The notes beneath the pieces are model-generated. The model was not told where the DNA came from. It worked only from the letters and a program-made list of their open reading frames with translations, and ran no database searches. A stretch of DNA of 64,000 bases from an uncultured Gammaproteobacteria bacterium (lineage in GTDB: Bacteria > Patescibacteriota > Patescibacteriia > Magasanikbacterales > UBA922): contig CAYSXR010000001.1 of NCBI GenBank assembly GCA_964435035.1, forward strand, positions 144,192 through 208,191, written 5' to 3'. The translations under genes and the position numbers were made by a program. Below, in pieces: positions 16,575 through 55,253 of the stretch. Position 1 is the first letter of the stretch; each line of letters starts with the position of its first letter.

Positions 16575-16647
16575 TGACCCCGGTGGGGATCGAACCCACG
16601 ACCATTGGCTTAAAAGGCCACTGCTCTACCAGCTGAGCTACAGGGTC
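16575..16647 (-). tRNA. tRNA-Lys (anticodon TTT)
   Basis: hand-folded cloverleaf on minus strand: acceptor GACCCTG/CGGGGTC, D-arm GCTC..GAGC, anticodon loop CTTTTAA, T-arm GTGGG-TTCGATC-CCCAC, discriminator A; 73 nt. Confidence 0.8.
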
Positions 16648-19914: not shown

Positions 19915-21360
19915 ATGTCTAAAAGAATAAAACAAACAAAAATCGTTGCAACCATTGGTCCAGCATGTGAAAGTATCGAAATTCTTGAGCGCATGGTACA
20001 TGCAGGTATGAATGTTGCTCGATTGAATTTTTCCCACGGTACTCATGAAAATCATGCGATGCTTATCAAAAATATTCGTGAAGTGGAAAAGCGCACGGGA
20101 GAGCCAGTGGCAATTCTACAGGATTTGCAAGGGCCAAAATTACGACTAGGGGAATTGCCGCCTGAGGGTATTGAAATAGAAAAAGGCACAGAAATTGTGT
20201 TTGCATATAATCCCGAAACATCGGTGGAAATTCCAATTGGTTTTAAAGAATTGTGTGAATTTATGAAACCAGGAGAGCGTATTTTACTCGATGATGGGAA
20301 ATGCGAAGCACGTGTCTTCCGAATTGAAAAAGAAAAAATTATCACCACTGTAGTGGTGGGTGGAAAGCTCACGTCACACAAGGGAATCAATGTGCCTGAT
20401 ACTGATTTGAAAACACTTAAAGTGTTAACTGAAAAAGATAAAGAAGATTTGAAATTTGGTGTAGAACACGGAGTTGATTTGGTCGCATTGTCTTTTGTGA
20501 TGGACGCACAAGATATTCTTGACGTGAAGTTTTTTATTACTGAAATCGAGCAATCAACAAAAAAAGTGGGAAATAATCCAATTCGTATTATTGCAAAAAT
20601 AGAAAAACACGAAGCAGTACAGAAAATTGAAAAAATTATTGATGTTGCTGATGGAATCATGGTGGCACGTGGAGATTTGGGTATTGAAATACCTGCAGAG
20701 GAAGTGCCGCTTATTCAGAAAAGAATTATTGATTTGGCGCGTGAGGGAGCAAAGCCTGTGATTGTAGCAACTCAAATGCTTGATTCTATGCAACATAACC
20801 CTCGTCCGACGCGTGCAGAGGTGTCAGATGTGTCAAATGCGGTAATCGATCATACTGATGCAGTAATGCTTTCAAATGAGACGGCGACAGGAGAATATCC
20901 AGTTGAGACCATTGAAACTATGGCTTCAATCATCCGATCTGCAGAAGAATCAGATTATGATGATGTGAGTGTGGCTACAAGCTCTAGTTCAAAACGAAAA
21001 AATATTGATACGACGATTAGTGGATTATCAAAATTAGTTGCCGAAGAAGTGGGTGCAACATTGATTTTGGCAGCATCACTTTCCGGGGACACAGGTCGTC
21101 TGATCTCAAAATATCGTCCAGAGCTCCCCATTGCTGTTGCTGCAAGCTCGGATCGGGTACTTCGTCAGCTCAATCTTTCATGGGGCGTGAGACCATTTAT
21201 TCTCGAGGAATGCAAAACTATCGAAGAGCTGATTGAACGCTCAATTCTGATACTCAAAGATAGAAAAATGGTAGAAAAAGAAGATCGGATTATTATCGTT
21301 GCTGGGGAGCCAGTTGGGCAAGCAGGACATGTAAATTTACTGGAAGTTCGTGAGGTATAG
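19915..21360 (+). CDS. pyk: pyruvate kinase
   Basis: N-terminal KTKIVATIGPA...NVARLNFSHG motif; MVARGDLGIEIP catalytic region; 481 aa with C-terminal regulatory domain. Confidence 0.9.
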   Translation: MSKRIKQTKIVATIGPACESIEILERMVHAGMNVARLNFSHGTHENHAMLIKNIREVEKRTGEPVAILQDLQGPKLRLGELPPEGIEIEKGTEIVFAYNPETSVEIPIGFKELCEFMKPGERILLDDGKCEARVFRIEKEKIITTVVVGGKLTSHKGINVPDTDLKTLKVLTEKDKEDLKFGVEHGVDLVALSFVMDAQDILDVKFFITEIEQSTKKVGNNPIRIIAKIEKHEAVQKIEKIIDVADGIMVARGDLGIEIPAEEVPLIQKRIIDLAREGAKPVIVATQMLDSMQHNPRPTRAEVSDVSNAVIDHTDAVMLSNETATGEYPVETIETMASIIRSAEESDYDDVSVATSSSSKRKNIDTTISGLSKLVAEEVGATLILAASLSGDTGRLISKYRPELPIAVAASSDRVLRQLNLSWGVRPFILEECKTIEELIERSILILKDRKMVEKEDRIIIVAGEPVGQAGHVNLLEVREV

Positions 21361-21472: not shown

Positions 21473-24400
21473 ATGACTAGATTAACATTTTATCGAAGAC
21501 TTTCAATTGTCTCAGGTTTAGTATTGGTATTACTAAACCATTTTGCGTTTGGTTTTTTGGGATTTTTTATTCCAGTCGCAAAGGCCGATGCGATAACATG
21601 GGTAGGTCCATCAACGGGTTATTGGGATAATCCAACAAATTGGAGTAGTGGCACTATACCAACTGCTTCAGATGAGGTGATAATCTCAGGGGACGACATG
21701 TTTATATTAGCAACATCAACTATTAATTTTGCTTCGCTTACTCTTGCGGGTCCTGATGTGCGTTTCAGTCTGTTGGGGGGTATTGGAACTGGAGGTGACC
21801 TTACGATCTCTGAGAGTTTGTTTATACAATCCACGTCAACACGTCAGACGATCAGTGGGACTTTAACAATTAATGATGGGGTGATGCAGCATCTACAAAA
21901 CACTTCAACAACGTTATATAAGCTTGATTTTGTGGCGGAAAATATTGTTATCGAGCCGGGCGGACATGTACGAGTGGATAATGAGGGTTCACCGGGAGGT
22001 GAAATAGGAGAAGACGGGTATGGAAATGGAGGGGGTGATGGAGATTCAAATATAAGTGCTGGTGCAGGTGGAAGCAATGCTGGGACCGGAGGATCGAGTA
22101 GTTCAGGAAACTATGGAGGGTTTTCAACCTGTACTTTTTCTGATGTTGGACCATCCTATGGCGGAAGTGGGGGAGGCGGAAGTGCTACCTCTACTGGAGG
22201 GGATGGGGGAGGATTTGTGCGTCTTGAAGCAAATAATACATTTACGATAAATGGACGTATTACCGCAGACGCTGATCATACTTCGGGGCAGACTGCAGGC
22301 GAAGGTGCGGGGGGTGGATCTGGAGGAACTATTTATCTAGTCGCTGATACGATTAGCGGAGTTCCAGAAGCTCCAATTTCTGCTCGTGGGGGAAATAGTT
22401 TTGATGCAAATGGAGGAGCTGGAGGTGGTGGGTGTGTCCGCTTACAATATACCACAACAAGTACCATCGATGGTGCAAATATTATTGTTGATGGTGGAGT
22501 TGGTTTTGAAAACGGTGGTGCTGGAGTTGCACTGGTAGAAAAAGAAGATCAGTCAATTCGAAAAATGTATGTAACTGCAACAACAACACTTAATTATGGA
22601 GTTGGACAGCTTTATAGCACTGCTGGTACAAATTTTATTTCCTTATCCGGCGCTGAGGAACTCACGACCTTGTCAGTCTCAACTTCTTCTGTATATATCA
22701 TTGGAGATTTTTTAGGTGCAAGTGAACTCACACTTACGGGGGCTACTCCATTTCAAGGCAGTAGTCCATCAGGTACCGTACGAATTCAGGGTGACGTAAA
22801 ATTAAAGCTGTCTTCAGGGGCAAGTATTGAGGATGTAACTCTGGAACTGTATCACGAAGATGTGTCTCGGCGTGCGCGTCTCGTAGATCGTGCTACAGAC
22901 GAATCAGCTACTCTTGATATTGTAATTGGTGACCAAGGGACGCTTCTTTTAAATAATTTCAATTCCACAACTCCCTTGATGGTTGAGACATTTACTGTTG
23001 CAGCCGGTGGAGTCGTGACTCATGAACAAAATAGTATCTCACCGGAACAAAGAGAAATGGTGAATATACAGGCTGAAAATATTACCATTGAGAGTGGTGG
23101 ATCTATTAATGTAGCTGGAAAAGGATACAGTGGGGGTAGAGGTTTAGGAGGTAGTGGCGATGGGCTTGGTGGTGGAGCCTATACGTCGAATGTAGGTGTA
23201 GGTGCGGGACATGGTGGAGATGGTACAGCAAATAATCTTGATGGCTCGTCTGCTGGAGCTGGTGGCACATCATATTGTGATGTTTCTAATCCTTCTACTA
23301 TTGGTTCAGGGGGAAGCTCAGGGTTGTTTAGTGGGAGCTTAGGGCGTAGAGGTGGAAATGGTGGGGGGATGGTATGGCTCGTAGCGACAAATACAATTAC
23401 GCTTGCAGGAGATATTTTTGCAGATGGCGAAAATGGGTCGTTTGACTCGTATGCAGGTGAAGAAACTTTTGAATCTATTTCCGGTGCAGGTTCAGGGGGG
23501 AGTGTAAAATTATTTGCTCCCACTATTGGAGGAGCAGGAGAAATTTTTGTAAGAGGTGGAAATAATGGGGTTGATCCAAGTCCGGCTCCTTCAGAATATG
23601 GCGGAGGCGGAGGCGGATGTGTATTGATAAACTATACGTATGACAATTCAGTTGTCACATCAAGTATATATATTACTGGAGGTGGACTTGATGCTGGGGT
23701 CGCAGAAGATGGACAATTGAGTATTGTGGAAGAAAATGAAGTTCCTGAGTTGTTTTTGAATTTTCATAAACCGGAATTTGTAGCTCGAGTTACAAGTACT
23801 ATTATTGATGGAGCTGGTGACCTGGCAGTTTCGGGCGATTATGCATATGTGGGAGGATTGATGGGTTCGAGTTTTGCGATTATCAATATCTCTAGTACTA
23901 CCAATCCGGCCGTAGTAGGAACCATAGAAACTACATCTGATTTGGCAGGTATATATGGAGTCGAGGTTTCGGGTAATTATGCGTATGTTGTTAATAGTTT
24001 TGACAATAGTTTTCGAGTGATCGATATTTCTAGTAGTACCAACCCGACTATTGTTGCAGGGATAGAGTTCGATACACCGATTCCAGAATTAATGAGCATT
24101 GCAGTATTAGGGAATTATGCTTATGTGATAGTAGGAGAAGATGGATACAGTTCACTCCGTGTGATAAATATTTCAAATCCGCTTTCTCCAACAGTAGTCG
24201 GGAGTATCATTAATGATTCTGACTTAGATTTTCTGAGTGATATTGTAGTTTCTGGAAGTTATGCATATGTTTCAACATTAGCAGCACAGTTTTCAATTAT
24301 TAATATCTCAAATCCAAGTTCGCCTGCCGTGGTAGGAAGTGTGCATGATACAACAATCCTTGATAATTCATTTGGTGTCGCAGTATCAGGAAATTACGCG

Positions 24401-27400
24401 TATGTAACTTCAGATGATAATAGTTCTGTTGCAGTTATTGATATTTCTGATCCAGAGAATCCGGATATAGTGAAAGTGGTGACTGGTGGTGAGTCGATAG
24501 TTGATAGTCTTCGGATGATTGTGATTGAGGGAGATTATGCGTATGTGGGAATGATTAGCCCTAATCCAGGAATTGGGATAATTGATATTACAAATCCACT
24601 CACTGCTAATTTTGTAGGGTATATTTTAGATCCAGATTTACTCACTACGCCAGCTAGAATGCAGGTAGCAGAGGGGGTGGTGTATATGACAGATTTTTCT
24701 GAGGATTCATTGAATATATTTAATGTATCACTGCCTTATTCGGTAAATCCTATTGTTCCATTTGATATTTCAGATGGTGATCGAGAAACACTCTCGGTGA
24801 AGGCAGAGTTTGTTCCTGGATCATGCGCGTACAGTGGTACGACATATGCAACGTTTGTTACCTCGACCGCAACATCAACCTATGGGGTTGCAATAGATAA
24901 TTCTGCAGTTGATAATCGAAGAATTAAAGATATTATCATTGACCCAGTTTCTGATTTTCCAATTACACAAGTAACCACCACATGGCACACCTCAGTAGAT
25001 ATTCCCGGTGATGAAGGGGAATATTGTATGTTTATGACTCCTTATGACGGTGAAGATGAAGGAATACGTGTAGCGGGTACGCTATTTGTCGATGATCCAT
25101 TACTCGCCCCAAACGCCCCTTCTCTCTCTGCCACCAAAACTCAAACCTCGATTACGCTTTCTTGGCCTGTGGCAAATGGGGCTAATCATTATGTGATTGT
25201 ATCAAGTATTTCGGGTATTCCTACAGAAACAGATGAAACTTCGGTGACTTACGCGGGTTTGGTAGCAGGGAATGAATATACTTTTCAGGTTAAATCGGTG
25301 GATAATTATGGTAATGAAAGTGCGTATTCAGAAGTATTTCCTGTTACTACTGTTGCACTAGGATCCTCTCCTCAACCCAGTGCACCCCCTCCTCCGTCAG
25401 ACACCACTCCTTCATCAACGACGACTTCAACGGTCTCGAATCCTTCTAGTCTCATTGTTATTAATAGTGGAGCATACTATACCAAATCACGAGAAGTGAA
25501 CGTGTTATTTAATACTGATTTTACGTCGGCGTATATGCTCGCAGACACTTTTGATTTTTCAGGAAAGATATACAAACCAATCGTTTCCTCAACAACCTAC
25601 ATACTCACTCCAGGAGACGGGGAAAAAAGAATTTATGCTCGTTTTAGTAATAATTATGGTATTTATGATGCGTATGATGTGATTGTGCTTGATACCGTGC
25701 CACCGAGCCAACCTACTATTAATGCAATTAGTTCTCCTGATTTTGTTCTAAAAACTGAAGGAGTGTATGGGCGAAAGAATACGAGTAGTACTGTGCGCAT
25801 CAAACCAACACTTGGAGGTACTGCTGAGCCAGGAAAACGAATTATGATCACTGTCTCCTATGGAGGAACAAATATGGTGATGATGATGTTAGCTGCAGTA
25901 GAAACATACTACACCACTGCAGACAGTAATGGAAATTGGTCGTTTACGTTTCCGAACGAACTTCAAAATACGTATTATACTATTTCGGTACAAACACAAG
26001 ATGAAGCAGAAAATAACTCAAGTGCAGTAGAAATAGAGCTTGACTTACGTAGTCTGGAGACTCTTCCTTGTACTATAAATTGTGAACCATTAGACGAACC
26101 TCCTCTAGAGGAGCCCCCTGAAGATCTGCTGCCAGTCGAAGAGCCATTAGACGAACTTCCTCCTATTGAAACAGCTGAAGAGATTCCTTCCTGTACGATT
26201 GATTGTGGGGGAGAAGAATCTTCACCTGTAGATACGGGAGGAGAGAGTTCAGGTACTGAAGAAGAAAATACAACTGATGCTACGAGTGGAGGTGATACAG
26301 AGGGTAATGTAGACAATAGTTCAAATGAACCAATAGGCGAGCAAGTTATTTCGAGTATTACTGATTCAGTGTCTATTATTTCAGATACAATTGAAACTTT
26401 TTTTACTGAAGTTGGTAACTTATTACAAGAGATACCTATGGTGCGGGGGATAGTAGAAACTGCATCAGTTGCAGTTGAAAAAACGAGAGAAGTTATTGAT
26501 AATCCAACAATTGAAAAAAGTAATGAAGTAATTGCTGCCCCTATAATCGCTGTAGCTGCAGCAGCAAACGTCGCAGTTGGCGGGGCAGGTCTTCTATCAC
26601 AAGCCATGTTGTATCTTCGTCTTATTTTCTCTCAGCCACTACTTTTACTTAAATTGAGAAAGCGTAAAAGGTGGGGTGTGGTATTCAATGCATACACCAA
26701 ATTACCACTTGATTTAGCAACGGTTCGTCTAGTAAATGGAAAAAGTGATTCAATTATAAGAACACAAGTGACTGATGCAAAAGGTAGATATTTTATGGTT
26801 GCTGAAAATGGTGTATATCGACTTGAAGCAAAAAAGGATGGGTTTGGAACTAATGTTAACGTGACTACGGAGGATTCAGCGTTTCCAAATGTGTACCATG
26901 GAGAAGAGTTGGAATTAGCAGAGGAATCGAATAATCTTAATTACAATATCCCACTCGAACCTATCGTAGAAGAAAAATCAAATACGCACGTGCTCCGAGA
27001 ATATGCGAGGAAAGCTACTCATAAAACGGTTAGTTTGATCGGAGCGGTGGCAACCATTGTTTCGCTGATTATTTCTCCGAAGCCATGGATCACTGCATTG
27101 CTTGTATTCCATATTGTCCTGTATAGCCTCATGAGGCGCCTTGCTCATAAAAAGATCAAAGGAACCTTTGGTTTAGTTACTGATAAAAAAACAGGTAAAG
27201 AGATTGGTAAAGTGGTAATCCGTGTTTTTGATGCAGCGTACAATAAGCTAGTTGAAACCGGAGTTACAGATTCAAAAGGTAGGTATGCAATTCTGGTAGG
27301 TCCAAGTATCTACTATATTACTGCAGAAAAAGAAGGTTTTATTACCTATCAATCACCAACGATAGATTTTTCAAGTGAGAAGACGGATGGTCTCGGAGGT

Positions 27401-27466
27401 GTAATTTCTGAGTCATGTAGTTTAAAACCCATTGATTTTCATGAGAAAAATGGCGACACGCTTTGA
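21473..27466 (+). CDS. giant cell-surface protein (1997 aa): beta-helix/Gly-rich region, LVIVD-type beta-propeller repeats, FN3 domain, Pro-rich linker, C-terminal two-TM anchor with two CarboxypepD_reg-like domains
   Basis: N-terminal hydrophobic signal/anchor; about 12 repeats of (V/I)SGNYAYV...FxIINIS..P (LVIVD-like); FN3-like SITLSWPVANGANHYVI...EYTFQVKSVDNYGNES; C-terminal module shared with the next gene. Confidence 0.7.
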   Translation: MTRLTFYRRLSIVSGLVLVLLNHFAFGFLGFFIPVAKADAITWVGPSTGYWDNPTNWSSGTIPTASDEVIISGDDMFILATSTINFASLTLAGPDVRFSLLGGIGTGGDLTISESLFIQSTSTRQTISGTLTINDGVMQHLQNTSTTLYKLDFVAENIVIEPGGHVRVDNEGSPGGEIGEDGYGNGGGDGDSNISAGAGGSNAGTGGSSSSGNYGGFSTCTFSDVGPSYGGSGGGGSATSTGGDGGGFVRLEANNTFTINGRITADADHTSGQTAGEGAGGGSGGTIYLVADTISGVPEAPISARGGNSFDANGGAGGGGCVRLQYTTTSTIDGANIIVDGGVGFENGGAGVALVEKEDQSIRKMYVTATTTLNYGVGQLYSTAGTNFISLSGAEELTTLSVSTSSVYIIGDFLGASELTLTGATPFQGSSPSGTVRIQGDVKLKLSSGASIEDVTLELYHEDVSRRARLVDRATDESATLDIVIGDQGTLLLNNFNSTTPLMVETFTVAAGGVVTHEQNSISPEQREMVNIQAENITIESGGSINVAGKGYSGGRGLGGSGDGLGGGAYTSNVGVGAGHGGDGTANNLDGSSAGAGGTSYCDVSNPSTIGSGGSSGLFSGSLGRRGGNGGGMVWLVATNTITLAGDIFADGENGSFDSYAGEETFESISGAGSGGSVKLFAPTIGGAGEIFVRGGNNGVDPSPAPSEYGGGGGGCVLINYTYDNSVVTSSIYITGGGLDAGVAEDGQLSIVEENEVPELFLNFHKPEFVARVTSTIIDGAGDLAVSGDYAYVGGLMGSSFAIINISSTTNPAVVGTIETTSDLAGIYGVEVSGNYAYVVNSFDNSFRVIDISSSTNPTIVAGIEFDTPIPELMSIAVLGNYAYVIVGEDGYSSLRVINISNPLSPTVVGSIINDSDLDFLSDIVVSGSYAYVSTLAAQFSIINISNPSSPAVVGSVHDTTILDNSFGVAVSGNYAYVTSDDNSSVAVIDISDPENPDIVKVVTGGESIVDSLRMIVIEGDYAYVGMISPNPGIGIIDITNPLTANFVGYILDPDLLTTPARMQVAEGVVYMTDFSEDSLNIFNVSLPYSVNPIVPFDISDGDRETLSVKAEFVPGSCAYSGTTYATFVTSTATSTYGVAIDNSAVDNRRIKDIIIDPVSDFPITQVTTTWHTSVDIPGDEGEYCMFMTPYDGEDEGIRVAGTLFVDDPLLAPNAPSLSATKTQTSITLSWPVANGANHYVIVSSISGIPTETDETSVTYAGLVAGNEYTFQVKSVDNYGNESAYSEVFPVTTVALGSSPQPSAPPPPSDTTPSSTTTSTVSNPSSLIVINSGAYYTKSREVNVLFNTDFTSAYMLADTFDFSGKIYKPIVSSTTYILTPGDGEKRIYARFSNNYGIYDAYDVIVLDTVPPSQPTINAISSPDFVLKTEGVYGRKNTSSTVRIKPTLGGTAEPGKRIMITVSYGGTNMVMMMLAAVETYYTTADSNGNWSFTFPNELQNTYYTISVQTQDEAENNSSAVEIELDLRSLETLPCTINCEPLDEPPLEEPPEDLLPVEEPLDELPPIETAEEIPSCTIDCGGEESSPVDTGGESSGTEEENTTDATSGGDTEGNVDNSSNEPIGEQVISSITDSVSIISDTIETFFTEVGNLLQEIPMVRGIVETASVAVEKTREVIDNPTIEKSNEVIAAPIIAVAAAANVAVGGAGLLSQAMLYLRLIFSQPLLLLKLRKRKRWGVVFNAYTKLPLDLATVRLVNGKSDSIIRTQVTDAKGRYFMVAENGVYRLEAKKDGFGTNVNVTTEDSAFPNVYHGEELELAEESNNLNYNIPLEPIVEEKSNTHVLREYARKATHKTVSLIGAVATIVSLIISPKPWITALLVFHIVLYSLMRRLAHKKIKGTFGLVTDKKTGKEIGKVVIRVFDAAYNKLVETGVTDSKGRYAILVGPSIYYITAEKEGFITYQSPTIDFSSEKTDGLGGVISESCSLKPIDFHEKNGDTL

Positions 27467-27627: not shown

Positions 27628-29610
27628 ATGAGTAGTTTGATTAAAAAAATAATTTTCGCAGCTTTTCTTCTGTGGCTTGTGCCTTCAGTAATTTTTGCTT
27701 CAGATAGTAATGGTACAATCAATACAAGTCATAAATATGGATGGGGAGAAAACTTGGGTTGGATTAATTTTGCCCCAACTGATGGGTCGAGTAATTATCA
27801 CGGGCTTACCATTACTGATTCTGCTGTTACTGGCTATGCATGGTCAGAAGCCTATGGCTGGATTAATTTTGCTCCAAGTAATGGCGGAGTAACTAATAGC
27901 TGTACCGGACAACTTGGTGGTTGGGCATGGTCTACACAATTGGGCTGGATTTCCATGAGCGGAGTAACAATTGGATCGACCGGAGAATTTAATGGTGTAT
28001 CAGGTGGAACAACGCTTCCTTCGGGTAGAATTACCTTTGATTGTGATAATTGTGATGTGCGTACTGATTGGATTCCTTGCGCTGAGCGTGAAGAAGAAGG
28101 TGGTGGAGGCCCTCCGCCCACCTGTTCCAATGGCGCGTCAGATTATCCAACCTGTACACCACCCACTCCACCAACCTGTTCTAATGGTGCTTCGGATTAT
28201 CCTACCTGCACACCTCCTCCAGATCCCACCTGTTCCAATGGCGCATCAGATTATCCAACCTGTACACCACCCACTCCACCTCCAGATCCAGTCTGCTCTA
28301 ATGGCGCATCAGACTACCCAACTTGTACGCAGCCACCAGATCCCACCTGTTCCAATGGTGCATCAGACTACCCAGCTTGTACTGCCTCTACCGATGGGGG
28401 TGATGGAGGTACCGGAGAGGGTGATGGAGGTGCTAGTGATGGGGGAGAAAGTGAAGGGGCGGGGAGTAGTGGAGGCGGAGGTGGTGGTGTTGCCACAGAA
28501 ATAATTTCAAATATTACTGATTCAGTTGGGGTAGTGGCTGATGCAACAGTAGCTGTTTTGCAAGATGTAGCAGAAGTGCTGGTTACTATTCCCGGAGTAC
28601 AAACTGTAGTTAATGCGGCCCAAGTTGCTATAGAAAGAACAGAAAAAGTTATTAATAATCCTACGGTTGAAAAAATAGATGAAGCAGTTTCAACTCCAGT
28701 GCTCACAGCAACAGCTGTAGTAAACGTAGTAGTAGGTGGTGCAACATTATTTTCGCAGATTTTAATATTTCTCCGTTTATTGTTTTTGCAGCCCTTACTA
28801 TTATTATTCAAACGTCATAAACAAAAAACATGGGGAACGGTTTTCAATAGTCATACAAAGCAACCTCTTGATTTGGCAATGGTGCGTCTGGTGCATGGAG
28901 AAAATGACACAATTGTACGCACCCAGGTGACTGATGCCCAGGGTCGTTATTTTATGGCTGCAGGAAGTGGTACGTATATTTTGAAGACTACTAAAGAAGG
29001 TTTTGGTCCACATAGTGGAACGCAAGCTGAAGATTCGGTATATCCAAATTTGTATCGTGGAGAAAAATTGGAATTAGTGGACAGAGAAAGTGAACTTAAT
29101 TACAACATCCCGCTTGAACCAGTGTATGAGGCAAAGAGTACTGCTGATATAATCAAAGAATATTCGAGAAAAACATTCCAAAAAACGTTGAGTTTGATTG
29201 GTGCAATTGCAACGGTGGCATCACTGATTATTTCTCCAAACATTTGGATGGCTGCTCTTTTGGTAGTACATCTGCTTATCTATGTGGTCATGAAACGGTT
29301 TGCACAAAAAAAAGTAAAAGGTGATCGTGGAATAGTAGTGGATAGTAAAACTAAAAAACCAATGAAGAAGGTGGTGATCCGTGTGTTTGATAATGCATAC
29401 AATAAATTGGTGGACACTGCAATTACTGATAACAATGGGTGTTATGCGGTTCTAGTGGGTCCTAGTACTTATTATATTACTGCAGAAAAAGAAGGGTATG
29501 CTCCATATCAGTCTGATACGATTGATCTAACGAGTAAAAAGACTAATGGAATTGGAGGTGTTATTACAGAAAACTTCTCTTTGATGTCAGTTGATGAAAA
29601 GAAAAAGTAA
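27628..29610 (+). CDS. cell-surface protein paralog (660 aa) with Trp-rich GWINFAP repeats, PTCSNGASDYPTCTPP tandem repeats and the same C-terminal anchor module
   Basis: signal peptide; C-terminal ~370 aa alignable by eye to the C-terminus of 21473..27466 (e.g. GTVFNSHTKQPLDLAMVRLVHGENDTIVRTQVTDAQGRYFM vs GVVFNAYTKLPLDLATVRLVNGKSDSIIRTQVTDAKGRYFM). Confidence 0.7.
   Translation: MSSLIKKIIFAAFLLWLVPSVIFASDSNGTINTSHKYGWGENLGWINFAPTDGSSNYHGLTITDSAVTGYAWSEAYGWINFAPSNGGVTNSCTGQLGGWAWSTQLGWISMSGVTIGSTGEFNGVSGGTTLPSGRITFDCDNCDVRTDWIPCAEREEEGGGGPPPTCSNGASDYPTCTPPTPPTCSNGASDYPTCTPPPDPTCSNGASDYPTCTPPTPPPDPVCSNGASDYPTCTQPPDPTCSNGASDYPACTASTDGGDGGTGEGDGGASDGGESEGAGSSGGGGGGVATEIISNITDSVGVVADATVAVLQDVAEVLVTIPGVQTVVNAAQVAIERTEKVINNPTVEKIDEAVSTPVLTATAVVNVVVGGATLFSQILIFLRLLFLQPLLLLFKRHKQKTWGTVFNSHTKQPLDLAMVRLVHGENDTIVRTQVTDAQGRYFMAAGSGTYILKTTKEGFGPHSGTQAEDSVYPNLYRGEKLELVDRESELNYNIPLEPVYEAKSTADIIKEYSRKTFQKTLSLIGAIATVASLIISPNIWMAALLVVHLLIYVVMKRFAQKKVKGDRGIVVDSKTKKPMKKVVIRVFDNAYNKLVDTAITDNNGCYAVLVGPSTYYITAEKEGYAPYQSDTIDLTSKKTNGIGGVITENFSLMSVDEKKK
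28117..28385 (+). repeat. coding tandem repeat, 5 units of 54-63 bp (PTCSNGASDYPTCTPP(T/P)P..)
   Basis: near-identical units cctgttccaatggcgcgtcagattatccaacctgtacaccacc... repeated head-to-tail inside CDS 27628..29610. Confidence 0.8.
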
Positions 29611-29664: not shown

Positions 29665-32600
29665 ATGAAATTGAGTATAAAAAAAGGTAAAAATAAAAAA
29701 AATAGTGCACGAGAATCCGCACATATTTTGTGGTTTGAAGAAATTGGAATTACTGATATTCCATTGGTTGGTGGAAAAAATGCGTCATTGGGGGAAATGT
29801 ATACTGGACTCAGATCAAAAAATATTGCAGTTCCGAATGGTTTTGCAATTACCGCAAAAGCGTATTGGGATTTTTTCGAAGCTCATGGATTAAATAAGAT
29901 AATCAAGAAAGAAATTAAAGGATTGAATGTACTTAAAATTAAAGATTTGAATCGAGTGGGAAAAAAGATACGATCACTCATTATTAACGCAAAATTTCCT
30001 GACGATTTACAAAAAGAAATTATTGAAGCGTACGAATCACTTAAAAAACAAGAAGGAGTAACTCATCTTTCAGTAGCGGTGCGATCGAGTGCAACTGCAG
30101 AAGATTTACCTGATGCAAGCTTTGCGGGTCAGCAAGAAACATATTTGAATATCGAAGGCCATGATGAATTATTGATTGCGGTAAAAAAATGTATTGCATC
30201 TCTATTCACTGATCGTGCGATTTCTTATCGTGAAACCAAAGGATTTGATCACATGGCAGTTGCTCTCTCGGTGACCGTGCAGACTATGGTTCGGTCAGAT
30301 GTGGGAGTCTCAGGAGTAATGTTCACGATTGATACTGAATCTGGTTTCCCTGGAGTAGTGCTTATTAATGCGTCATACGGGTTGGGTGAATATGTAGTCA
30401 AAGGTCAGGTAACTCCGGATCAGTTTTATGTGTTTAAAGAAGGTGTAAGAAAAGGGAAATCAGCAATTATCAGTAGAATCTTTGGTTCAAAAGAAGTGAA
30501 GTTGGTATATGGAAAACGCCTCACTACTCAAAATATTGTTCCGGCTGCTGATCGTCATAGATTGTGTATTTCAGATGAAGATGTGCTCACTCTTGCAAAA
30601 TGGGGGATGGAGATTGAGAAATTTTATAATAAAGCCCAAGATATTGAATGGGCAAAAGATGGTGTTACTGGGAAATTATATATCGTTCAGGCACGACCTG
30701 AAACAGTTCAGTCCCAAGCAAATCATGCGGTTATTGAGTCGTACGAGCTGAAAGAAAAAGGAAAATTAATTGCTCGCGGTATCTCAATTGGACAAAAAAT
30801 TGGGGCAGGTGTCGCGCGTATTATCAATGATCCTCGAGACATGAAGCTGTTTAAAAAAGGTGAAGTATTGGTAACCCGTATCACTGATCCTGATTGGGAG
30901 CCGATTATGCGTCTTGCGAGTGCAATTGTAACTGAACAAGGAGGAAAAACAAGTCATGCAGCAATTGTATCTCGTGAATTGGGAGTCCCTTGTGTAGTGG
31001 GTACCAAACAAGCACGTGCACTGATCAAAACAGGAGTAAAAGTAACGGTTTCGTGTGCTGAAAGCGAAGAGGGGCATGTGTATAAAGGCATGCTTCCGTT
31101 TGAAGTAAAAAAAACCACAATTACTGATATTGCAAAGACCAAGACTAAAATCATGATGAATGTGGGAGATCCGGATCATGCATTTGCATTATCATATTTA
31201 CCAAACGATGGAGTAGGACTTGCGCGCGAAGAATTTATATTTTCTAATTTTATTAGAATTCATCCACAAGCTCTCCTTAATTTTGACAAACTTAAAGATA
31301 AAAAAGCAAAAAAGAAAATTTCTGAATTAACTGTCGGGTACAAAGATAAACGCCAGTACGGAGTGGATAAACTCGCCGATGGTATTGCACGTATTGCTGC
31401 TGCATTCTACCCTCGCGATGTCATTGTACGTCTGTCTGATTTCAAAACCAATGAATACGCCACCTTGATTGGGGGGCTCGAATTTGAACCTAAAGAAGAA
31501 AATCCAATGATTGGTTGGCGTGGAGCTTCTCGGTATTATTCAGAGGAATATAAGACTGCATTTGGTATCGAGTGTGAAGCATTGAAAAAAGTTCGAAGCG
31601 ATTGGGGACTCAATAATGTAATTGTCATGGTGCCATTTTGTCGTACTCCAGAAGAAGGGAAGAATGTATTGAAAACCATGGCGGATTTTGGACTCAAACA
31701 AGGTGAAGATAAATTACAGGTCTATGTCATGTGTGAAATCCCATCAAACGTCATACTTGCAGAAGAATTCGCGAAAATTTTTGATGGATTCAGTATCGGA
31801 TCTAATGATTTAACGCAGTTGACGCTTGGGGTAGATCGTGATTCTGCATTAGTAAGCCATGTGTATGATGAGAAGAATAGTGCGGTAATGACACTGATCA
31901 AGCAGGTGATCAGAGTAGCTCATAAACATAAACGAAAAATTGGAATTTGTGGCCAAGCGCCAAGTGATTATCCAGAGTTTGCTGAATTTCTTGTGCGTGA
32001 AGGAATCGATAGCATCTCACTCAATCCAGATACGGTATTAGCAACACGCGCACGCATTGCAAAGACAGAAAAGAAAGTAGGTATGCGTGGCGGTACCACG
32101 AATCATAAATTTTTGACACTAGTATTTCTACTTGGGGTTTGCTCAGCAAGTATGATACTTCTTGGTGGTGGTTGCGGTGCAATCAAATCTGACAATTCGG
32201 TAAATACAATTACAACAGAATTAAGTCCGGCGCAAGTGAGAGCACAGTTTGAAGCGCGTGCATTGAGTGAGGCAGAAGAGCGTATTGAATCGAAACGAAG
32301 CACAATGACTATCTCCTCGCTAGGGTCATTTAAAGTTTCGTATCCACAAACGTGGGCAGTTGAAGAGCTTTCGAGTGTGCCAGGATATATGTTTTCAAAA
32401 CCTGAATCAAAAGCGCAGGTCGTAGTGGTAAAACAGAAAAAGTCTTCGACTACTGTGTCAGATGGTACTTCCTCCGTAGAGACTGCCGATACAGGTTTGT
32501 CTGCTGGAACAGTTGATAAGAATACTGCAAGCTCATACATCATAGTTGGTGAAAATACGCTAGAAGTCGAATATCGAAAAACTGAAGAGGGAACTGTTCT

Positions 32601-32802
32601 TACTGCAGTACATATTCCTCTTGATGAGGAAGAAGAATTATTTGTGTATGGGACACCAGGAAATGAATTTAATGACATTGTAGAAAGTCTTACGTTCACT
32701 GATCCTGAGGTGGCACCACCTCAAATATTACCAGATGCAGGAGAAGCTTGTATCCATGTAACACCTGATTCGGGTGGAAGTGATGCTGTTAGTTGTTACT
32801 AA
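29665..32802 (+). CDS. ppsA: phosphoenolpyruvate synthase (pyruvate, water dikinase) with in-frame ~230-aa C-terminal lipoprotein-like extension
   Basis: PEP-utilising enzyme N-terminal ATP-grasp region; phosphohistidine domain GGKTSHAAIVSRELGVPCVVG; C-terminal TIM-barrel ICGQAPSDYPEF; continues without stop into MRGGTTNHKFLTLVFLLGVCSASMILLGGGCGA... (TM/lipobox-like) and a Ser/Thr-rich domain. Confidence 0.75.
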   Translation: MKLSIKKGKNKKNSARESAHILWFEEIGITDIPLVGGKNASLGEMYTGLRSKNIAVPNGFAITAKAYWDFFEAHGLNKIIKKEIKGLNVLKIKDLNRVGKKIRSLIINAKFPDDLQKEIIEAYESLKKQEGVTHLSVAVRSSATAEDLPDASFAGQQETYLNIEGHDELLIAVKKCIASLFTDRAISYRETKGFDHMAVALSVTVQTMVRSDVGVSGVMFTIDTESGFPGVVLINASYGLGEYVVKGQVTPDQFYVFKEGVRKGKSAIISRIFGSKEVKLVYGKRLTTQNIVPAADRHRLCISDEDVLTLAKWGMEIEKFYNKAQDIEWAKDGVTGKLYIVQARPETVQSQANHAVIESYELKEKGKLIARGISIGQKIGAGVARIINDPRDMKLFKKGEVLVTRITDPDWEPIMRLASAIVTEQGGKTSHAAIVSRELGVPCVVGTKQARALIKTGVKVTVSCAESEEGHVYKGMLPFEVKKTTITDIAKTKTKIMMNVGDPDHAFALSYLPNDGVGLAREEFIFSNFIRIHPQALLNFDKLKDKKAKKKISELTVGYKDKRQYGVDKLADGIARIAAAFYPRDVIVRLSDFKTNEYATLIGGLEFEPKEENPMIGWRGASRYYSEEYKTAFGIECEALKKVRSDWGLNNVIVMVPFCRTPEEGKNVLKTMADFGLKQGEDKLQVYVMCEIPSNVILAEEFAKIFDGFSIGSNDLTQLTLGVDRDSALVSHVYDEKNSAVMTLIKQVIRVAHKHKRKIGICGQAPSDYPEFAEFLVREGIDSISLNPDTVLATRARIAKTEKKVGMRGGTTNHKFLTLVFLLGVCSASMILLGGGCGAIKSDNSVNTITTELSPAQVRAQFEARALSEAEERIESKRSTMTISSLGSFKVSYPQTWAVEELSSVPGYMFSKPESKAQVVVVKQKKSSTTVSDGTSSVETADTGLSAGTVDKNTASSYIIVGENTLEVEYRKTEEGTVLTAVHIPLDEEEELFVYGTPGNEFNDIVESLTFTDPEVAPPQILPDAGEACIHVTPDSGGSDAVSCY

Positions 32803-32898: not shown

Positions 32899-34224
32899 AT
32901 GAAAAAATGGTCCCAAAAAATAACTTGCATTCTCATGCTTTTTAGCATGTCTATTGTGGTTTTTTTTGGTAGACCTGTGTATAGTTCAATCGAAGAACAG
33001 AAAGAGTTACAACAGGAGCTCAAAAATATCGAAGCAGAGATTGGGAAGCTTGAACAAGAAATTACAACTACAAAAGGCGAAAAGAAAACACTTGCAAGTA
33101 AGATTCAACAACTTAAACAAGAACAAAATAAAATTAAGCTTCAGATACAGGCAACTGCCCTGCACATTAAAGACCTGGAAAATAAAATTGATGTCACTCT
33201 TGATGAAATACAAAAGAATGAAGAAAAAAGTGAGGAGCTTAAAAATAATTTAGGCGTATTACTTCGTCTCTTGTACCAGAGAAATCAGGAAGCGCGGGCG
33301 TTTCGATTAATATTGCAGGGAAAGCTTAGTGATGCGATTGTTGAAGTAAGAAATTTGGAACGGTTGTCTGATTCAATCGGGGAGTTACTGGATGATGCAA
33401 AAAAAGTACGGAAAGATCTTGAAGTGCAGAAAGAGAAGTATGCGACTGACCAGGAAGACGCAAGTGAACTTTTGAAGCTTGTAGAAGCGGAGGGTGGTTC
33501 ACTTACGGGTAAGCTGCAGGAACAAGCAAAATTATTGAAGAGTACACAAGGCAAAGAAGAAAATTATCAGAGTCAGCTTCAGGATAATAAAAAACGCGCA
33601 GCAGAAATCAAGAGTCGAATTTATGAGCTTCTTGATGTGGGTACGCAAATTACCTTTGGTGAAGCGGTAACCATTTCTGAATGGGTGAGTGGACAGATTG
33701 GTGTGCCAGCTTCGCTTCAGCTCGCAATTCTGACCCAAGAATCAAATCTAGGTAAAAATGTAGGAACCTGTAATCGTCTGGGCGACCCCCCTGAAAAAAG
33801 CTGGAAAGTGATTATGAAGCCTGAACGGGACCAAGAGCCGTTCAAAAAAATTACCGAAGAATTGGGAAAAGATCCGGATATTACACCGGTGTCTTGTCCT
33901 ATGCGGAATAAAGATGGTAGTCAGCTCGGATGGGGAGGTGCTATGGGTCCAGCACAATTTATTCCTTCGACATGGGTGGGGTATAAGGCTAAAGTTTCAG
34001 CAATTACGGGTAAAACTCCAGCAGACCCTTGGGATATTCGAGATGCATTTCTCGCCTCTGCCTTGCTTCTCAAGGCAAATGGAGCTGATGGTACTCGTGA
34101 CGGGAATTGGAAAGCCGCAATGCGCTATTTTTCAGGTGGAATCAATCCAAAATATAGTTTTTATGGGGATAATGTGATAGCTCTTTCGGATAAGTACGAG
34201 GAAGATATTAAAGCGTTGAAATAG
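32899..34224 (+). CDS. secreted coiled-coil protein with C-terminal lytic transglycosylase (SLT_2/MltB-like) domain
   Basis: signal peptide; ~200 aa heptad-rich coiled coil; C-terminal GWGGAMGPAQFIPSTW motif characteristic of the MltB/SLT_2 family. Confidence 0.6.
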   Translation: MKKWSQKITCILMLFSMSIVVFFGRPVYSSIEEQKELQQELKNIEAEIGKLEQEITTTKGEKKTLASKIQQLKQEQNKIKLQIQATALHIKDLENKIDVTLDEIQKNEEKSEELKNNLGVLLRLLYQRNQEARAFRLILQGKLSDAIVEVRNLERLSDSIGELLDDAKKVRKDLEVQKEKYATDQEDASELLKLVEAEGGSLTGKLQEQAKLLKSTQGKEENYQSQLQDNKKRAAEIKSRIYELLDVGTQITFGEAVTISEWVSGQIGVPASLQLAILTQESNLGKNVGTCNRLGDPPEKSWKVIMKPERDQEPFKKITEELGKDPDITPVSCPMRNKDGSQLGWGGAMGPAQFIPSTWVGYKAKVSAITGKTPADPWDIRDAFLASALLLKANGADGTRDGNWKAAMRYFSGGINPKYSFYGDNVIALSDKYEEDIKALK

Positions 34225-34296: not shown

Positions 34297-34866
34297 TTAA
34301 AATTGTTTCATTATCCACATCACCTCGTCAGGGTAGGATGGGATCACGGTGCCATTGTAGTAGTATAATTTTCTTTTGACCGAAGGAGTCGAATACCATC
34401 GAGCAGTTCTCGGATTATCTCCACACAAATTTTTGCCTACTTCCTGTATTGCTTCATCAATATTTTTGAAAGGAATTTGGGCTCCTCCCCAACCAAAAGG
34501 ATTATTATACTGCATCCGCTTTCCACCAGTGGATTCGCGTACTGCAATTGCAGGAAGCAATCGCCAATCCAGTCCGCAGCTATCAGCAACTGCAATAAAA
34601 CTTTTACCATATCCAGCAAGCGGCATGTTATATTTTTCAAAATACGCATCAATCCTGTCTGCTCGCTCGTCGGCAATTGTTGGCTCTGTATATATGCGTG
34701 CAATAATATATATTGTAAGTCCTCCGAGTATACTCAAGATAAGAATTGTGCTCATGAGGTGTCTGCGATAACGAAGAAAAAGTACGGGGAATACTGGCTG
34801 TTTTTTGATGCGACGGTTTTTTTTCTGTTGAATAGAAAGAGTACTTCGTTTTTTTGTACGGGGCAT
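34297..34866 (-). CDS. membrane-anchored peptidoglycan hydrolase, glucosaminidase (FlgJ/LytD-like) domain
   Basis: basic N-terminus + TM; AIAVRESTGGKRMQYNNPFGWGG matches glucosaminidase-domain ES..G...NN.FG signature. Confidence 0.5.
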   Translation of the reverse strand: MPRTKKRSTLSIQQKKNRRIKKQPVFPVLFLRYRRHLMSTILILSILGGLTIYIIARIYTEPTIADERADRIDAYFEKYNMPLAGYGKSFIAVADSCGLDWRLLPAIAVRESTGGKRMQYNNPFGWGGAQIPFKNIDEAIQEVGKNLCGDNPRTARWYSTPSVKRKLYYYNGTVIPSYPDEVMWIMKQF

Positions 34867-36492: not shown

Positions 36493-36566
36493 CGGGCTGG
36501 ACGGGACTCGAACCCGCAACTTCTGCCGTGACAGGGCAGTGCTCTAACCAGTTGAACTACCAGCCC
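36493..36566 (-). tRNA. tRNA-Asp (anticodon GTC)
   Basis: hand-folded on minus strand: acceptor GGGCTGG/CCAGCCC, anticodon stem CTGCC/GGCAG with loop CTGTCAC, T-arm GCGGG-TTCGAGT-CCCGT, discriminator G; 74 nt. Confidence 0.8.
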
Positions 36567-38647: not shown

Positions 38648-38776
38648 ACTTCCTCCTTAAAAAAGTTGTATTGGCAGTGCCACGAGGGCGCGCTGTGCTT
38701 AGTAATGTTGCTGCCACGTAAAGTCGCTACGCTCCTACGTGGCACTCAAAGGCGCTCTGAGAATCGCGCCTTTTCG

Positions 38777-39173
38777 TGGAGATGCCGGGAGTCGAACCCG
38801 GGTCTAGACGGGTTACCCCGATACTCTACATGTGTATCGATGTTTGGTGTTTCGCATACGAATATGAAACATCGAAAAATATCGCATGCTATCGCATGAA
38901 TGGTTTCAACTAACTTCCATACGAACAAAGTTAGTCTACGCTCGAACTAGGGTTGGCACCGTGGATCCACCATCGAGTATCGTGGGTACGATGGTCGTAG
39001 TGATTTAGGCTACAACAGAAGCAAAGCTAGGCATACTGAAAGCTTTCGCTACAGTGTTTTTAGCTCGCTCGAACAAGTTTGCACTTGTGGAATTGCCTAT
39101 TTGTTACAGAGACAGGCACTCTGACATGCATATACAAGATAACAGAATCCATCTATCGAAGCCTGTCATCCCC
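38777..39173 (-). ncRNA. ssrA: tmRNA (ssrA)
   Basis: minus-strand 5' GGGGATGACAGGCTTCGA... and 3' ...GACCCGGGTTCGACTCCCGGCATCTCCA tRNA-like domain (acceptor GGGGATG/CATCTCC with one G-U); immediately downstream of smpB; ~397 nt; followed by a GGCGC..GCGCC + TTT terminator. Confidence 0.75.
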
Positions 39174-46240: not shown

Positions 46241-46416
46241 CATTTTGATATAGAGAAGAAAAATCACTGATAGCAGTCGGTGATTTTTTGTTTTTTTAAG
46301 GTGTTTGGGCTAGAAATGTGCTAAAAAGTATGAGAGTAGTCAAAAGGGGCTACACCCTTTACTTTTTGTCAAAATTTGCATAAAGTACGTTAATGCTTAT
46401 TGTGGCAGGGGTATAC

Positions 46417-48104: not shown

Positions 48105-48159
48105 ACCTCAACCCAACTAGTCCGACCTCCCTCGGGAGGTCGGACACAGGAGAACAGAC

Positions 48160-55248: not shown

Positions 55249-55253
55249 GTTAT

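What the first reader, a model, noticed from the sequence alone, without database searches (positions are those of the whole stretch)
32083..32802. PEP synthase fused in-frame to a ~230-aa lipoprotein-like C-terminal extension
PpsA domains are complete by about residue 790 (ends ...SLNPDTVLATRARIAKTEKK). The ORF then continues without a stop into MRGGTTNHKFLTLVFLLGVCSASMILLGGGCGA (hydrophobic helix with an LLGGGC lipobox-like motif). After that comes a Ser/Thr/Val-rich domain ending ...VTPDSGGSDAVSCY. This is either a genuine fusion that tethers a cytosolic gluconeogenic enzyme to the membrane, or a separate downstream lipoprotein gene (in-frame ATG at 32083) whose upstream stop was lost or mis-assembled.
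Basis: seen in the sequence. Interest (0 to 1): 0.5.

Follow-up and report, generated by a model that had tools for sequence, protein, structure and literature searches.

The report
PEP synthase fused to exported lipoprotein-like domain
This is a real fusion, conserved across a whole group of ultrasmall (Magasanikbacteria) bacteria, that joins the cytoplasmic enzyme PEP synthase in one reading frame to a lipoprotein-type membrane signal and a small exported binding domain; no paper found here describes this architecture for a central-metabolism enzyme.

Summary
ORF 29665-32802 (+) encodes 1045 aa. A complete PEP synthase (aa 1-804) runs without a stop into a K/R linker, one hydrophobic helix ending in LLGGGC (Cys837), and a 208-aa C-terminal domain.

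It is not an assembly artefact or a recently lost stop.
- The identical protein occurs in two independent assemblies.
- Four other species-level genomes keep the frame. One has no ATG at the junction.
- Window versus L008, the linker and helix differ by 15 synonymous changes and 1 non-synonymous change.
- 116 of the 120 closest PpsA homologs, mostly Candidatus Magasanikbacteria, are 950 aa or longer.
- 113 carry G-x-G-C. The Cys lies exactly 48 residues after SLNPD in 109 of them.

Best reading: a bitopic protein, with PpsA held at the cytoplasmic face and the PsbP-like domain outside. The invariant Cys is probably lipid-modified, and LspA may cleave there. Lipidation and cleavage are inferred, not shown.

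No literature on this architecture was found. I rate it a new variant of a known kind, of moderate interest.

The parts
29665..32802 (+). Whole fused ORF: 1045 aa plus TAA stop
   Evidence: The identical protein is found in two Logan assemblies.
29665..32076 (+). PEP synthase (PpsA) part, aa 1-804. PPDK_N is aa 33-357 (29761-30735), the phospho-His mobile domain aa 396-465 (30850-31059) and PEP-utilizers_C aa 490-802 (31132-32070).
   Evidence: Pfam. NCBIfam equivalogs NF005057 and TIGR01418 score above their cutoffs. The catalytic-His motif GGKTSHAAIVSR and the signature DGFSIGSNDLTQLTLGVDR are present. PDB 2OLS aligns to aa 20-799. AF2 confidence is high up to helix 788-804.
32077..32079 (+). 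Junction codon GTA (Val805), at the position where canonical PpsA genes stop
   Evidence: This codon is GTA in the window, L008 and L009, TGG in L003 and L011, and TGA in L006. Canonical PpsA proteins end at ...EK.LG[KR]*.
32077..32109 (+). Positively charged linker, n-region-like, aa 805-815 (VGMRGGTTNHK). It includes the non-conserved in-frame ATG at 32083-32085.
   Evidence: Family linkers average 4.1 K/R and 0 D/E, and only 26 of 113 contain a Met. L009 has ACA instead of ATG. AF2 pLDDT is below 50 at aa 807-811.
32110..32172 (+). Hydrophobic helix, aa 816-836: a signal-anchor or h-region
   Evidence: KD mean is 2.34, the only such segment in the protein. AF2 predicts helix 814-834. In all 113 family members the 20 residues before Cys-1 contain no polar or charged residue. 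Window versus L008, the linker plus helix shows 15 synonymous and 1 non-synonymous change.
32161..32175 (+). Lipobox-like motif L-G-G-G-C, aa 833-837. Cys837 is at 32173-32175.
   Evidence: G37, G39 and C40 are invariant in 42 tails that share less than 50% identity. G[AGST]GC occurs in 113 of 120 homologs, with the Cys at +48 after SLNPD in 109.
32176..32226 (+). Disordered tether after the Cys, aa 838-854
   Evidence: AF2 pLDDT is below 50 for aa 835-853 and low in the tail-only model. The region is rich in indels in the alignment.
32227..32700 (+). Exported PsbP/Mog1-like domain, aa 855-1012: helix 855-876, a beta-sandwich at 878-996 and helix 1000-1007. A low-complexity insert sits at about aa 930-943.
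32701..32799 (+). C-terminal Cys hairpin, aa 1013-1045, with Cys1029 (32749-32751) and Cys1044 (32794-32796). It is a shortened form of the 4-Cys module found in most family members.
   Evidence: C1029 and C1044 are invariant in 89 full-length homologs. The number of Cys after the lipobox Cys is even in 112 of 113. The 4-Cys module also occurs as a repeat in other proteins.

Best explanation
The gene encodes one genuine, long-conserved polypeptide.

A catalytically intact PEP synthase occupies aa 1-804 and stays in the cytoplasm. It is followed by a segment with the anatomy of a lipoprotein (type II) signal peptide: a K/R-rich n-region, a roughly 21-residue uncharged h-region, and L-G-G-G-C.

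This segment inserts N-in/C-out. It therefore acts as a signal-anchor. It holds PpsA at the inner face of the membrane and exports the last 208 residues. Those residues are a flexible tether, a PsbP/Mog1-type binding domain and a disulfide hairpin.

The invariant Cys at the outer end of the helix is most likely diacylglyceryl-modified by Lgt. If so, LspA may cut in front of it. That would leave a tail-anchored PpsA and a separate mature lipoprotein.

Shown here: the fusion, its conservation and selection, the single hydrophobic helix, the fold of the exported domain, and the flexible linkers.

Inferred: the topology (from the positive-inside rule and the paired cysteines), the lipidation and the cleavage. 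I give lipidation about 0.5 and cleavage about 0.35.

The physiological pay-off is not established. It could be membrane localisation of PEP/pyruvate turnover, or co-production of enzyme and envelope protein. The confidence given is for the genuine fusion and the bitopic topology, not for lipidation or cleavage.
For: Not an artefact:
- The same 1045-aa protein is found in the SRR12762287 and SRR12762285 assemblies.
- The frame is kept in L008, L009, L003/L010 and L011, with many synonymous changes across the junction.
- dN/dS is 0.014 for the linker and helix and 0.11 for the extension against L008, and 0.06-0.18 against L009.

Clade-wide:
- 116 of the 120 best PpsA homologs (59-100% identity) are 950 aa or longer.
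- The G-x-G-C Cys lies +48 after SLNPD in 109 of 113. Linkers carry 4.1 K/R and 0 D/E. The h-region is free of polar residues in 113 of 113.
- A profile of the tail matches in full only at the C-termini of PpsA proteins or their fragments, among 1.84 billion representative proteins.

Not separately initiated:
- L009 lacks the ATG.
- A Met occurs in the linker in only 26 of 113.

Exported:
- The number of Cys after the motif is even in 112 of 113.
- The fold is that of PsbP, LpqN, DcrB and Apa, which are proteins of lumenal, periplasmic or envelope compartments.
- Distant standalone homologs have N-terminal membrane anchors and hit Pfam PsbP_2.

Lipoprotein-like:
- The G-x-G-C motif is invariant, while the rest of the helix varies freely.
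- A disordered tether follows the Cys, as in ordinary lipoproteins.

The enzyme is intact: equivalog scores and catalytic motifs are all present.
Against: - No biochemical evidence exists for topology, lipidation or cleavage.
- Position -3 of the motif is Gly, not the usual Leu/Val/Ile. A second fused clade has LGGYGC or LTGYTC, and Thr at -1 is atypical for a lipobox.
- The signal is internal, about 800 residues from the N-terminus. I know of no described Lgt/LspA substrate of that kind, and a search for 'internal lipobox' found nothing.
- No lgt or lspA motif was found in the 64-kb window.
- The only canonical N-terminal lipoboxes in the window lie in a high-GC island that may be foreign.
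- One close homolog (P0090/L026, 814 aa) lacks the extension. One strain (L006) has TGA at the junction. The extension is therefore dispensable, or at least lost, in some lineages.
Confidence: 0.85

Rival explanations
1. Artefact. ppsA and a downstream lipoprotein gene are really separate, and the stop between them was lost through mis-assembly or a sequencing error in this window.
For: One related contig (L006, 2 kb, single-run Logan assembly) has TGA exactly at the junction codon. Canonical PpsA genes stop at this position.
Against: - The identical ORF is found in two independent assemblies.
- The frame is kept in four other species-level genomes and in about 113 of the 120 nearest homologs from many sources.
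- There is strong purifying selection across the junction.
- L006 is 99.0% identical to L011, which has TGG at that codon. Its TGA is therefore a strain-level SNP or an error on a fused background.
Confidence: 0.02
2. The ORF is continuous, but the lipoprotein is made mainly on its own by internal initiation at ATG 32083. The full-length fusion would then be a tolerated by-product.
For: From Met807 the sequence MRGGTTNHKF...LLGGGC fits the relaxed pattern for Gram-positive lipoprotein signal peptides. L008 keeps the ATG. Genes in this genome lack Shine-Dalgarno motifs, so the absence of one here does not argue against initiation.
Against: - L009 (74% identical extension) has ACA at this codon, and no ATG, GTG or TTG before the hydrophobic core.
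- Only 26 of 113 family members have any Met in the linker.
- The linker's charge and its exact 48-residue spacing from the PpsA barrel are conserved. This is expected if the linker is always translated as part of PpsA.
Confidence: 0.07
3. Receptor-enzyme. The extracellular PsbP-like domain senses a ligand or a host surface. It then regulates PpsA activity allosterically across the membrane, like the bitopic Ser/Thr kinases PknB and PknH.
For: The topology is the same as in receptor kinases. PsbP-like and related sandwiches serve as extracellular sensor or binding modules: the PknH and PknI sensor domains appear as weak fold hits. The extension is under purifying selection.
Against: - Both sides of the helix are low-confidence, flexible, indel-rich linkers (aa 807-811 and 835-853, pLDDT below 50). 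This is a poor basis for conformational coupling.
- The G-x-G-C motif is not explained by this model.
- No signalling module such as HAMP is present.
Confidence: 0.1
4. Plain uncleaved and unlipidated membrane anchor. The helix only tethers PpsA, and the G-x-G-C motif serves helix packing or dimerisation, or forms an intermolecular disulfide, rather than lipidation.
For: A 21-residue fully apolar segment is the length of a transmembrane helix. Small-x-small motifs commonly mediate helix-helix packing, and PEP-utilising enzymes dimerise through the C-terminal domain (established knowledge). Gly at -3 and the GY[GT]C variants are not classic lipoboxes.
Against: - The invariant residue is a Cys at the exact outer end of the helix, preceded by small residues and followed by a disordered tether. 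This is the lipoprotein arrangement.
- That Cys is the odd one out among otherwise paired cysteines in 112 of 113 members.
Confidence: 0.3

Closest known systems
Canonical bacterial PEP synthase (PpsA; for example Neisseria meningitidis PDB 2OLS, 794 aa; E. coli PpsA)
   Same: All three domains are present in the same order, with the catalytic His and PEP-binding signatures. NCBIfam equivalog scores are far above their cutoffs. 2OLS aligns to aa 20-799.
   Different: Canonical enzymes are soluble and end 16-30 residues after SLNPD, at ...EK.LG[KR]. This one continues for 240 more residues: a linker, a transmembrane or lipobox segment and an exported domain.
Multimeric archaeal PEP synthases with C-terminal extensions (PDB 9DAE, 846 aa; 8A8E, 817 aa; 24 chains per entry)
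   Same: These are PpsA homologs in which extra C-terminal sequence adds a new property to the enzyme. They align to aa 12-808 and 94-808.
   Different: Their extension is short. From my own knowledge, it is a soluble helix that drives assembly of the 24-mer. There is no hydrophobic helix, lipobox or exported domain.
PsbP/Mog1-fold envelope lipoproteins and secreted proteins (DcrB, M. tuberculosis LpqN, Apa, MTC28; Pfam PsbP_2)
   Different: Those proteins carry the signal peptide at their own N-terminus. Here it sits behind an 800-aa cytoplasmic enzyme. The window's domain itself matches no Pfam family.
Bitopic receptor kinases (PknB and PknH type): N-terminal cytoplasmic enzyme, one transmembrane helix, extracellular domain
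   Same: The predicted membrane topology and domain order are the same.
   Different: The cytoplasmic part here is a central-metabolism enzyme, not a signalling kinase. The linkers look flexible, and a lipobox-like motif caps the helix.

Membership tests
PEP synthase (pyruvate, water dikinase; PpsA) | Three domains in order: PPDK_N (ATP-grasp), PEP-utilizers mobile domain, PEP-utilizers_C | tested here: met
   Pfam: aa 33-357 (E 4.6e-121), 396-465 and 490-802.
PEP synthase (pyruvate, water dikinase; PpsA) | Full-length match to curated equivalog models above the trusted cutoff | tested here: met
   NF005057 scores 1191 bits (cutoff 598), covering model positions 3-793 of 798. TIGR01418 scores 1145 bits (cutoff 739.75).
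PEP synthase (pyruvate, water dikinase; PpsA) | Phospho-histidine site and PEP-utilising-enzyme signature 2 (PROSITE patterns, written from memory) | tested here: met
   GGKTSHAAIVSR at aa 426-437 and DGFSIGSNDLTQLTLGVDR at aa 707-725.
PEP synthase (pyruvate, water dikinase; PpsA) | Catalyses pyruvate + ATP + H2O <-> PEP + AMP + Pi | not testable with these tools
   This needs an enzyme assay. A pyruvate kinase gene is also present at 19915-21360.
Bacterial lipoprotein (type II signal peptide; Lgt/LspA substrate) | Lipobox [LVI][ASTVI][GAS]C at the end of the h-region | tested here: inconclusive
   The motif is L-G-G-G-C (family-wide [LVI]G[AG]GC). It fits the relaxed PROSITE/G+LPPv2-type pattern used. 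However, it has Gly at -3 instead of Leu/Val/Ile, and a second clade has GY[GT]C.
Bacterial lipoprotein (type II signal peptide; Lgt/LspA substrate) | Positively charged n-region followed by an uncharged hydrophobic h-region | tested here: met
   Family linkers average 4.1 K/R and 0 D/E. The 20 residues before Cys-1 have no polar or charged residue in 113 of 113.
Bacterial lipoprotein (type II signal peptide; Lgt/LspA substrate) | Signal peptide located at the N-terminus of the precursor | tested here: not met
   The motif lies at aa 805-837 of 1045, behind a complete PpsA. There is no conserved internal start codon.
Bacterial lipoprotein (type II signal peptide; Lgt/LspA substrate) | Genome encodes Lgt and LspA | tested here: inconclusive
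   A motif scan of the 64-kb window found neither. The rest of the genome was not available.
Bacterial lipoprotein (type II signal peptide; Lgt/LspA substrate) | S-diacylglyceryl modification of the Cys and cleavage before it | not testable with these tools
   This needs lipid labelling, globomycin treatment or mass spectrometry.
PsbP/Mog1 fold superfamily (includes Pfam PsbP, PsbP_2, DUF1795/DcrB, LpqN) | Alpha-beta-alpha sandwich fold that superposes on solved members | tested here: met
PsbP/Mog1 fold superfamily (includes Pfam PsbP, PsbP_2, DUF1795/DcrB, LpqN) | Direct sequence match to a Pfam model of the superfamily | tested here: not met
   The window's extension has no Pfam hit. The link is only transitive: the tail profile finds P0190 and P0210, and these hit PsbP_2 at 27.9 and 33.3 bits against a cutoff of 27.

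The most novel reading that the evidence does not exclude
The fusion is a natural enzyme-lipoprotein 'polyprotein'. An internal type II signal peptide, carried behind an 800-residue folded cytoplasmic enzyme, is recognised by Lgt and cut by LspA. One translation product would then yield a PEP synthase tail-anchored by the retained signal peptide, plus a mature surface lipoprotein, in fixed 1:1 stoichiometry. I know of no described example of lipoprotein processing at an internal site of a metabolic enzyme. It would also be a new way of anchoring a cytosolic enzyme to the membrane.
Probability: 0.33. Interest if true: 0.75.

Novelty: new variant of a known kind. Interest (0 to 1): 0.55.

Why it matters
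PEP synthase is a textbook soluble enzyme. Here a whole lineage of genome-reduced, probably host-dependent bacteria has kept it welded to a lipoprotein-type export signal and a surface domain, under purifying selection.

If the enzyme really works at the membrane, PEP/pyruvate/ATP turnover in these cells is spatially organised. That organisation could be tied to envelope synthesis or to uptake.

If the internal signal is processed, the known substrate range of Lgt and LspA would widen to internal sites. It would also show a polyprotein strategy for making a lipoprotein.

On the practical side, these proteins are currently annotated simply as 'phosphoenolpyruvate synthase', so the extra module goes unseen. 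The invariant 48-residue spacing and the G-x-G-C motif give a simple signature for finding them.

Tried and rejected
- A word-based homolog search with the extension alone found only 3 relatives. The family became visible only through the full-length search and the profile search.
- Apparent standalone lipoprotein versions (P0266, P0238, P0126, P0131, P0003) were checked at the DNA level. P0266/L012 is in frame with ...ISLNPD... and is merely cut by the contig end. P0003/L006 is the TGA variant. L013 and L014 have too little upstream sequence to decide.
- The ppsA split in L003 is a run of N in the scaffold, not a frameshift.
- The fold library afdb50 was unavailable.
It was rerun with A4, which includes the PpsA C-terminus.
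- Motif scans for Lgt and LspA in the window were negative.
- Ribosome-binding-site analysis was uninformative, because this genome shows no Shine-Dalgarno motifs upstream of its genes.
- The tail profile found nothing meaningful in the PDB by sequence.
- Six literature searches found no description of this fusion. Two papers were opened and were irrelevant to it.
- An alternative genetic code was considered as an explanation for the L006 TGA. I set it aside because the window lineage has a sense codon (GTA) at that position, so no recoding is needed.
Full report
**1. The observation**

The + strand ORF 29665..32802 encodes 1045 aa. The DNA at 32060-32090 reads ...GAA AAG AAA GTA GGT ATG CGT GGC..., with no stop.

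Pfam finds the three PpsA domains at aa 33-357, 396-465 and 490-802. The NCBIfam PpsA equivalogs cover aa 17-806 at about twice their cutoffs. The closest solved PpsA, 2OLS (794 aa), aligns to aa 20-799. The phospho-His and PEP-utilising signatures are intact.

The last 239 aa have no Pfam hit. The only NCBIfam hit is far below threshold (TIGR03931, 16.6 bits against 47.6). Residues 816-834 are the only strongly hydrophobic segment in the protein. They end in L-L-G-G-G-C, with Cys837.

**2. Artefact or real?**

The identical 1045-aa protein is encoded on contigs assembled independently from two sequencing runs.

A scan of one genome per species found four more loci. At the DNA level all of them keep ppsA and the extension in one frame. 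They are L008 (88% identical extension), L009 (74%), and L003/L010 and L011 (38%).

Between the window and L008, the linker plus helix differs by 15 synonymous changes and 1 non-synonymous change (dN/dS 0.014). The extension has dN/dS 0.11. Against L009 the values are 0.06-0.18.

L009 has ACA where the window has ATG 32083. It has no other start codon before the hydrophobic core, so there the extension can only be made as part of PpsA.

The one exception is L006, a 2-kb single-run contig with TGA at the junction codon. It is 99.0% identical to L011, which has TGG at that codon. The stop is therefore a strain-level SNP or an error on a fused background.

**3. How widespread?**

A full-length search shows that the long form is the rule among the nearest PpsA homologs. 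Of the 120 best hits, 116 are 950 aa or longer (median 1041). These hits are 59-100% identical, and where a source names them they are mostly Candidatus Magasanikbacteria or 'Patescibacteria group'.

- 113 of the 120 carry G-[AGST]-G-C.
- The Cys lies exactly 48 residues after the SLNPD motif in 109 of them, 49 in 3 and 53 in 1.
- The linker before the helix averages 4.1 Lys/Arg and no Asp/Glu.
- The 20 residues before Cys-1 contain no polar or charged residue in any of the 113.
- The number of cysteines after the motif is even (0, 2, 4 or 6) in 112 of 113.

In an alignment of 42 tails that share less than 50% identity, the invariant columns are one Glu of the last PpsA helix, G-x-G-C, and the Pro of a Y-P motif.

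A profile of the tail was searched against 1.84 billion representative proteins. It matches in full only at the C-termini of proteins of about 900-1040 aa, or of fragments of them. The fragments tested are PEP-utilising enzymes. An apparently standalone 198-aa hit is in frame with ...ISLNPD... and is simply cut by the contig end.

A metagenome scan returned 69 canonical PpsA genes, and these end 16-30 residues after SLNPD at ...EK.LG[KR]*. The extension starts exactly at the canonical stop.

None of these loci has a separate downstream homolog of the exported domain. The scan also revealed a second, more divergent fused clade (L018-L021) with LGGYGC or LTGYTC. One close homolog (P0090/L026, 814 aa) lacks the extension.

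**4. What the extension is**

AlphaFold2 was run on the tail (mean pLDDT 82.5) and on the full protein (83.8). Both give the same picture:

| Region (aa) | Prediction |
|---|---|
| 788-804 | last PpsA helix |
| 807-811 | low-confidence loop |
| 814-834 | helix |
| 835-853 | disordered stretch, begins at the G-G-C |
| 855-876 | helix |
| 878-996 | beta-sandwich |
| 1000-1007 | helix |
| 1015-1045 | low-confidence tail with two invariant cysteines |

The core superposes on PsbP/Mog1-fold proteins.
- Foldseek gives probability 1.00 to plant PsbP and to BT_1490.

Distant standalone relatives found by the profile (P0190, P0210) have N-terminal membrane anchors and hit Pfam PsbP_2 just above its cutoff.

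Most family members end in a 4-Cys module (C.Q.ITYA...C..F.TPCDVP..W.VC). This module also occurs as tandem repeats in other proteins, of which the one inspected (P0147) begins with a signal-peptide-like N-terminus. The window's clade keeps only the first Cys pair.

**5. How it most likely works**

- The charge distribution gives the orientation. The residues before the helix are Lys/Arg-rich with no acidic residues, which by the positive-inside rule puts the N-terminal side in the cytoplasm. PpsA then stays in the cytoplasm and the C-terminal 208 residues are exported.
- Export fits the paired cysteines and the envelope-type fold.
- The segment from the linker to Cys837 has the three-part anatomy of a type II (lipoprotein) signal peptide. 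It is followed by a disordered tether, as in ordinary lipoproteins.
- G-x-G-C is invariant while the rest of the helix varies freely. That points to recognition by an enzyme rather than to simple hydrophobic anchoring.
- I therefore think the Cys is probably diacylglyceryl-modified by Lgt (about 0.5). LspA may then cut before it (about 0.35), which would give a tail-anchored PpsA plus a mature lipoprotein. These steps are inference.
- The flexible linkers on both sides of the helix argue against rigid transmembrane signalling.

The window also encodes a pyruvate kinase at 19915-21360. PpsA is therefore not the only enzyme in this organism that links PEP and pyruvate, and its direction of operation in vivo is open.

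**6. What remains unsupported**

- No lgt or lspA signature occurs in the 64-kb window.
- The only canonical N-terminal lipoboxes in the window lie in a 10-kb island of 55-58% GC, against a 40% background.
- Gly at position -3, and the GY[GT]C variants, are atypical for lipoboxes.
- Genes here lack Shine-Dalgarno motifs, so internal initiation at ATG 32083 cannot be excluded from sequence alone in this particular lineage. It cannot be the general mechanism for the family.

**7. Comparison and novelty**

The enzyme part is a bona fide PpsA. The exported part has the fold of the PsbP/Mog1 superfamily. The signal resembles a lipoprotein signal peptide but fails the 'N-terminal' criterion.

Archaeal 24-mer PpsA proteins also have C-terminal extensions (9DAE and 8A8E), but these are short and soluble.

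Six full-text literature searches found no description of a membrane-anchored or lipobox-bearing PEP synthase.

The proteins exist in public databases, where they are annotated only as 'phosphoenolpyruvate synthase'. I rate this a new variant of a known kind, real, conserved and unexplained, with moderate interest (0.55).

Noticed in passing
window 46000-56000: A 10-kb island has 55-58% GC against about 40% elsewhere. It contains no rRNA. It encodes three proteins with canonical N-terminal lipoboxes (starts at 49686, 51914 and 52999) that carry thrombospondin type 3 and Dicty_CTDC Cys-rich repeats. A GT4 glycosyltransferase (55417-56493) and a Wzy_C O-antigen-ligase-like gene (56501-57976) flank it. 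The island could be horizontally acquired or an assembly chimera.
   Followed up: partly
window 19915-21360 (+): A complete pyruvate kinase (PK barrel plus PK_C) lies 8 kb upstream of the fused ppsA. The organism therefore has both enzymes that interconvert PEP and pyruvate.
   Followed up: no
L006:351-353 versus L011 and L003: The junction codon is TGA in L006 but TGG (Trp) in L011, which is 99.0% identical over 2069 bp, and in L003. This could be a natural nonsense variant, a leaky stop or a sequencing error. Downstream, the first start codons are TTG and then ATG (MVGLIG...), which would give a signal peptide without a charged n-region.
   Followed up: partly
P0147, P0157, P0159 and other hits: The 35-aa 4-Cys module that ends most long PpsA proteins (C.Q.I.Y......G.C..[FY]PTPCDVP.G[WY]) also occurs as 2-6 tandem repeats in unrelated proteins that have no Pfam annotation. 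P0147, for example, begins with a signal-peptide-like N-terminus. It looks like an undescribed small disulfide-rich extracellular repeat.
   Followed up: partly
L026 (P0090, 814 aa) and L016 (P0012): There are occasional losses or breaks of the extension. P0090 ends ...EKSLIKKFSFRQLLTLLLSY* just inside the would-be helix, and is followed by a GC-rich stretch that I did not check and an opposite-strand ORF that looks like a glycosyltransferase. In L016 the extension is split by a frameshift into two ORFs.
   Followed up: partly
window 27628-29610 (+) and 21473-27466 (+): Immediately upstream of ppsA is a 660-aa secreted or membrane protein. It has a five-fold CSNGASDYPTCT-PP repeat, a Gly/Asp/Glu-rich stretch, hydrophobic segments and two carboxypeptidase-regulatory-like domains. 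Before that lies a 1997-aa protein with LVIVD repeats, Big_13 and fn3. Downstream (32899-34224 and 34297-34866) are a coiled-coil SLT_2-like protein and a 189-aa ORF with no Pfam hit that looks lysozyme-like by eye. The 441-aa and 189-aa neighbours are syntenic in L003, L007 and L008.
   Followed up: partly
window, upstream of about 25 gene starts: No Shine-Dalgarno-like motifs are visible. The leaders are AT-rich, which suggests SD-independent initiation in this organism.
   Followed up: no
window 38774-39173 (-): A tmRNA gene (106 bits) lies in a neighbourhood that is syntenic with SmpB, IF3 and L20 in the related loci. tRNAs are found at 16575-16647 and 36493-36566.
   Followed up: no
L008, L010 and L011 record titles: Three public MAG records that carry this Magasanikbacteria-type locus are titled 'uncultured Gammaproteobacteria bacterium'. 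This is probably a placeholder or a mislabel in the submissions.
   Followed up: no
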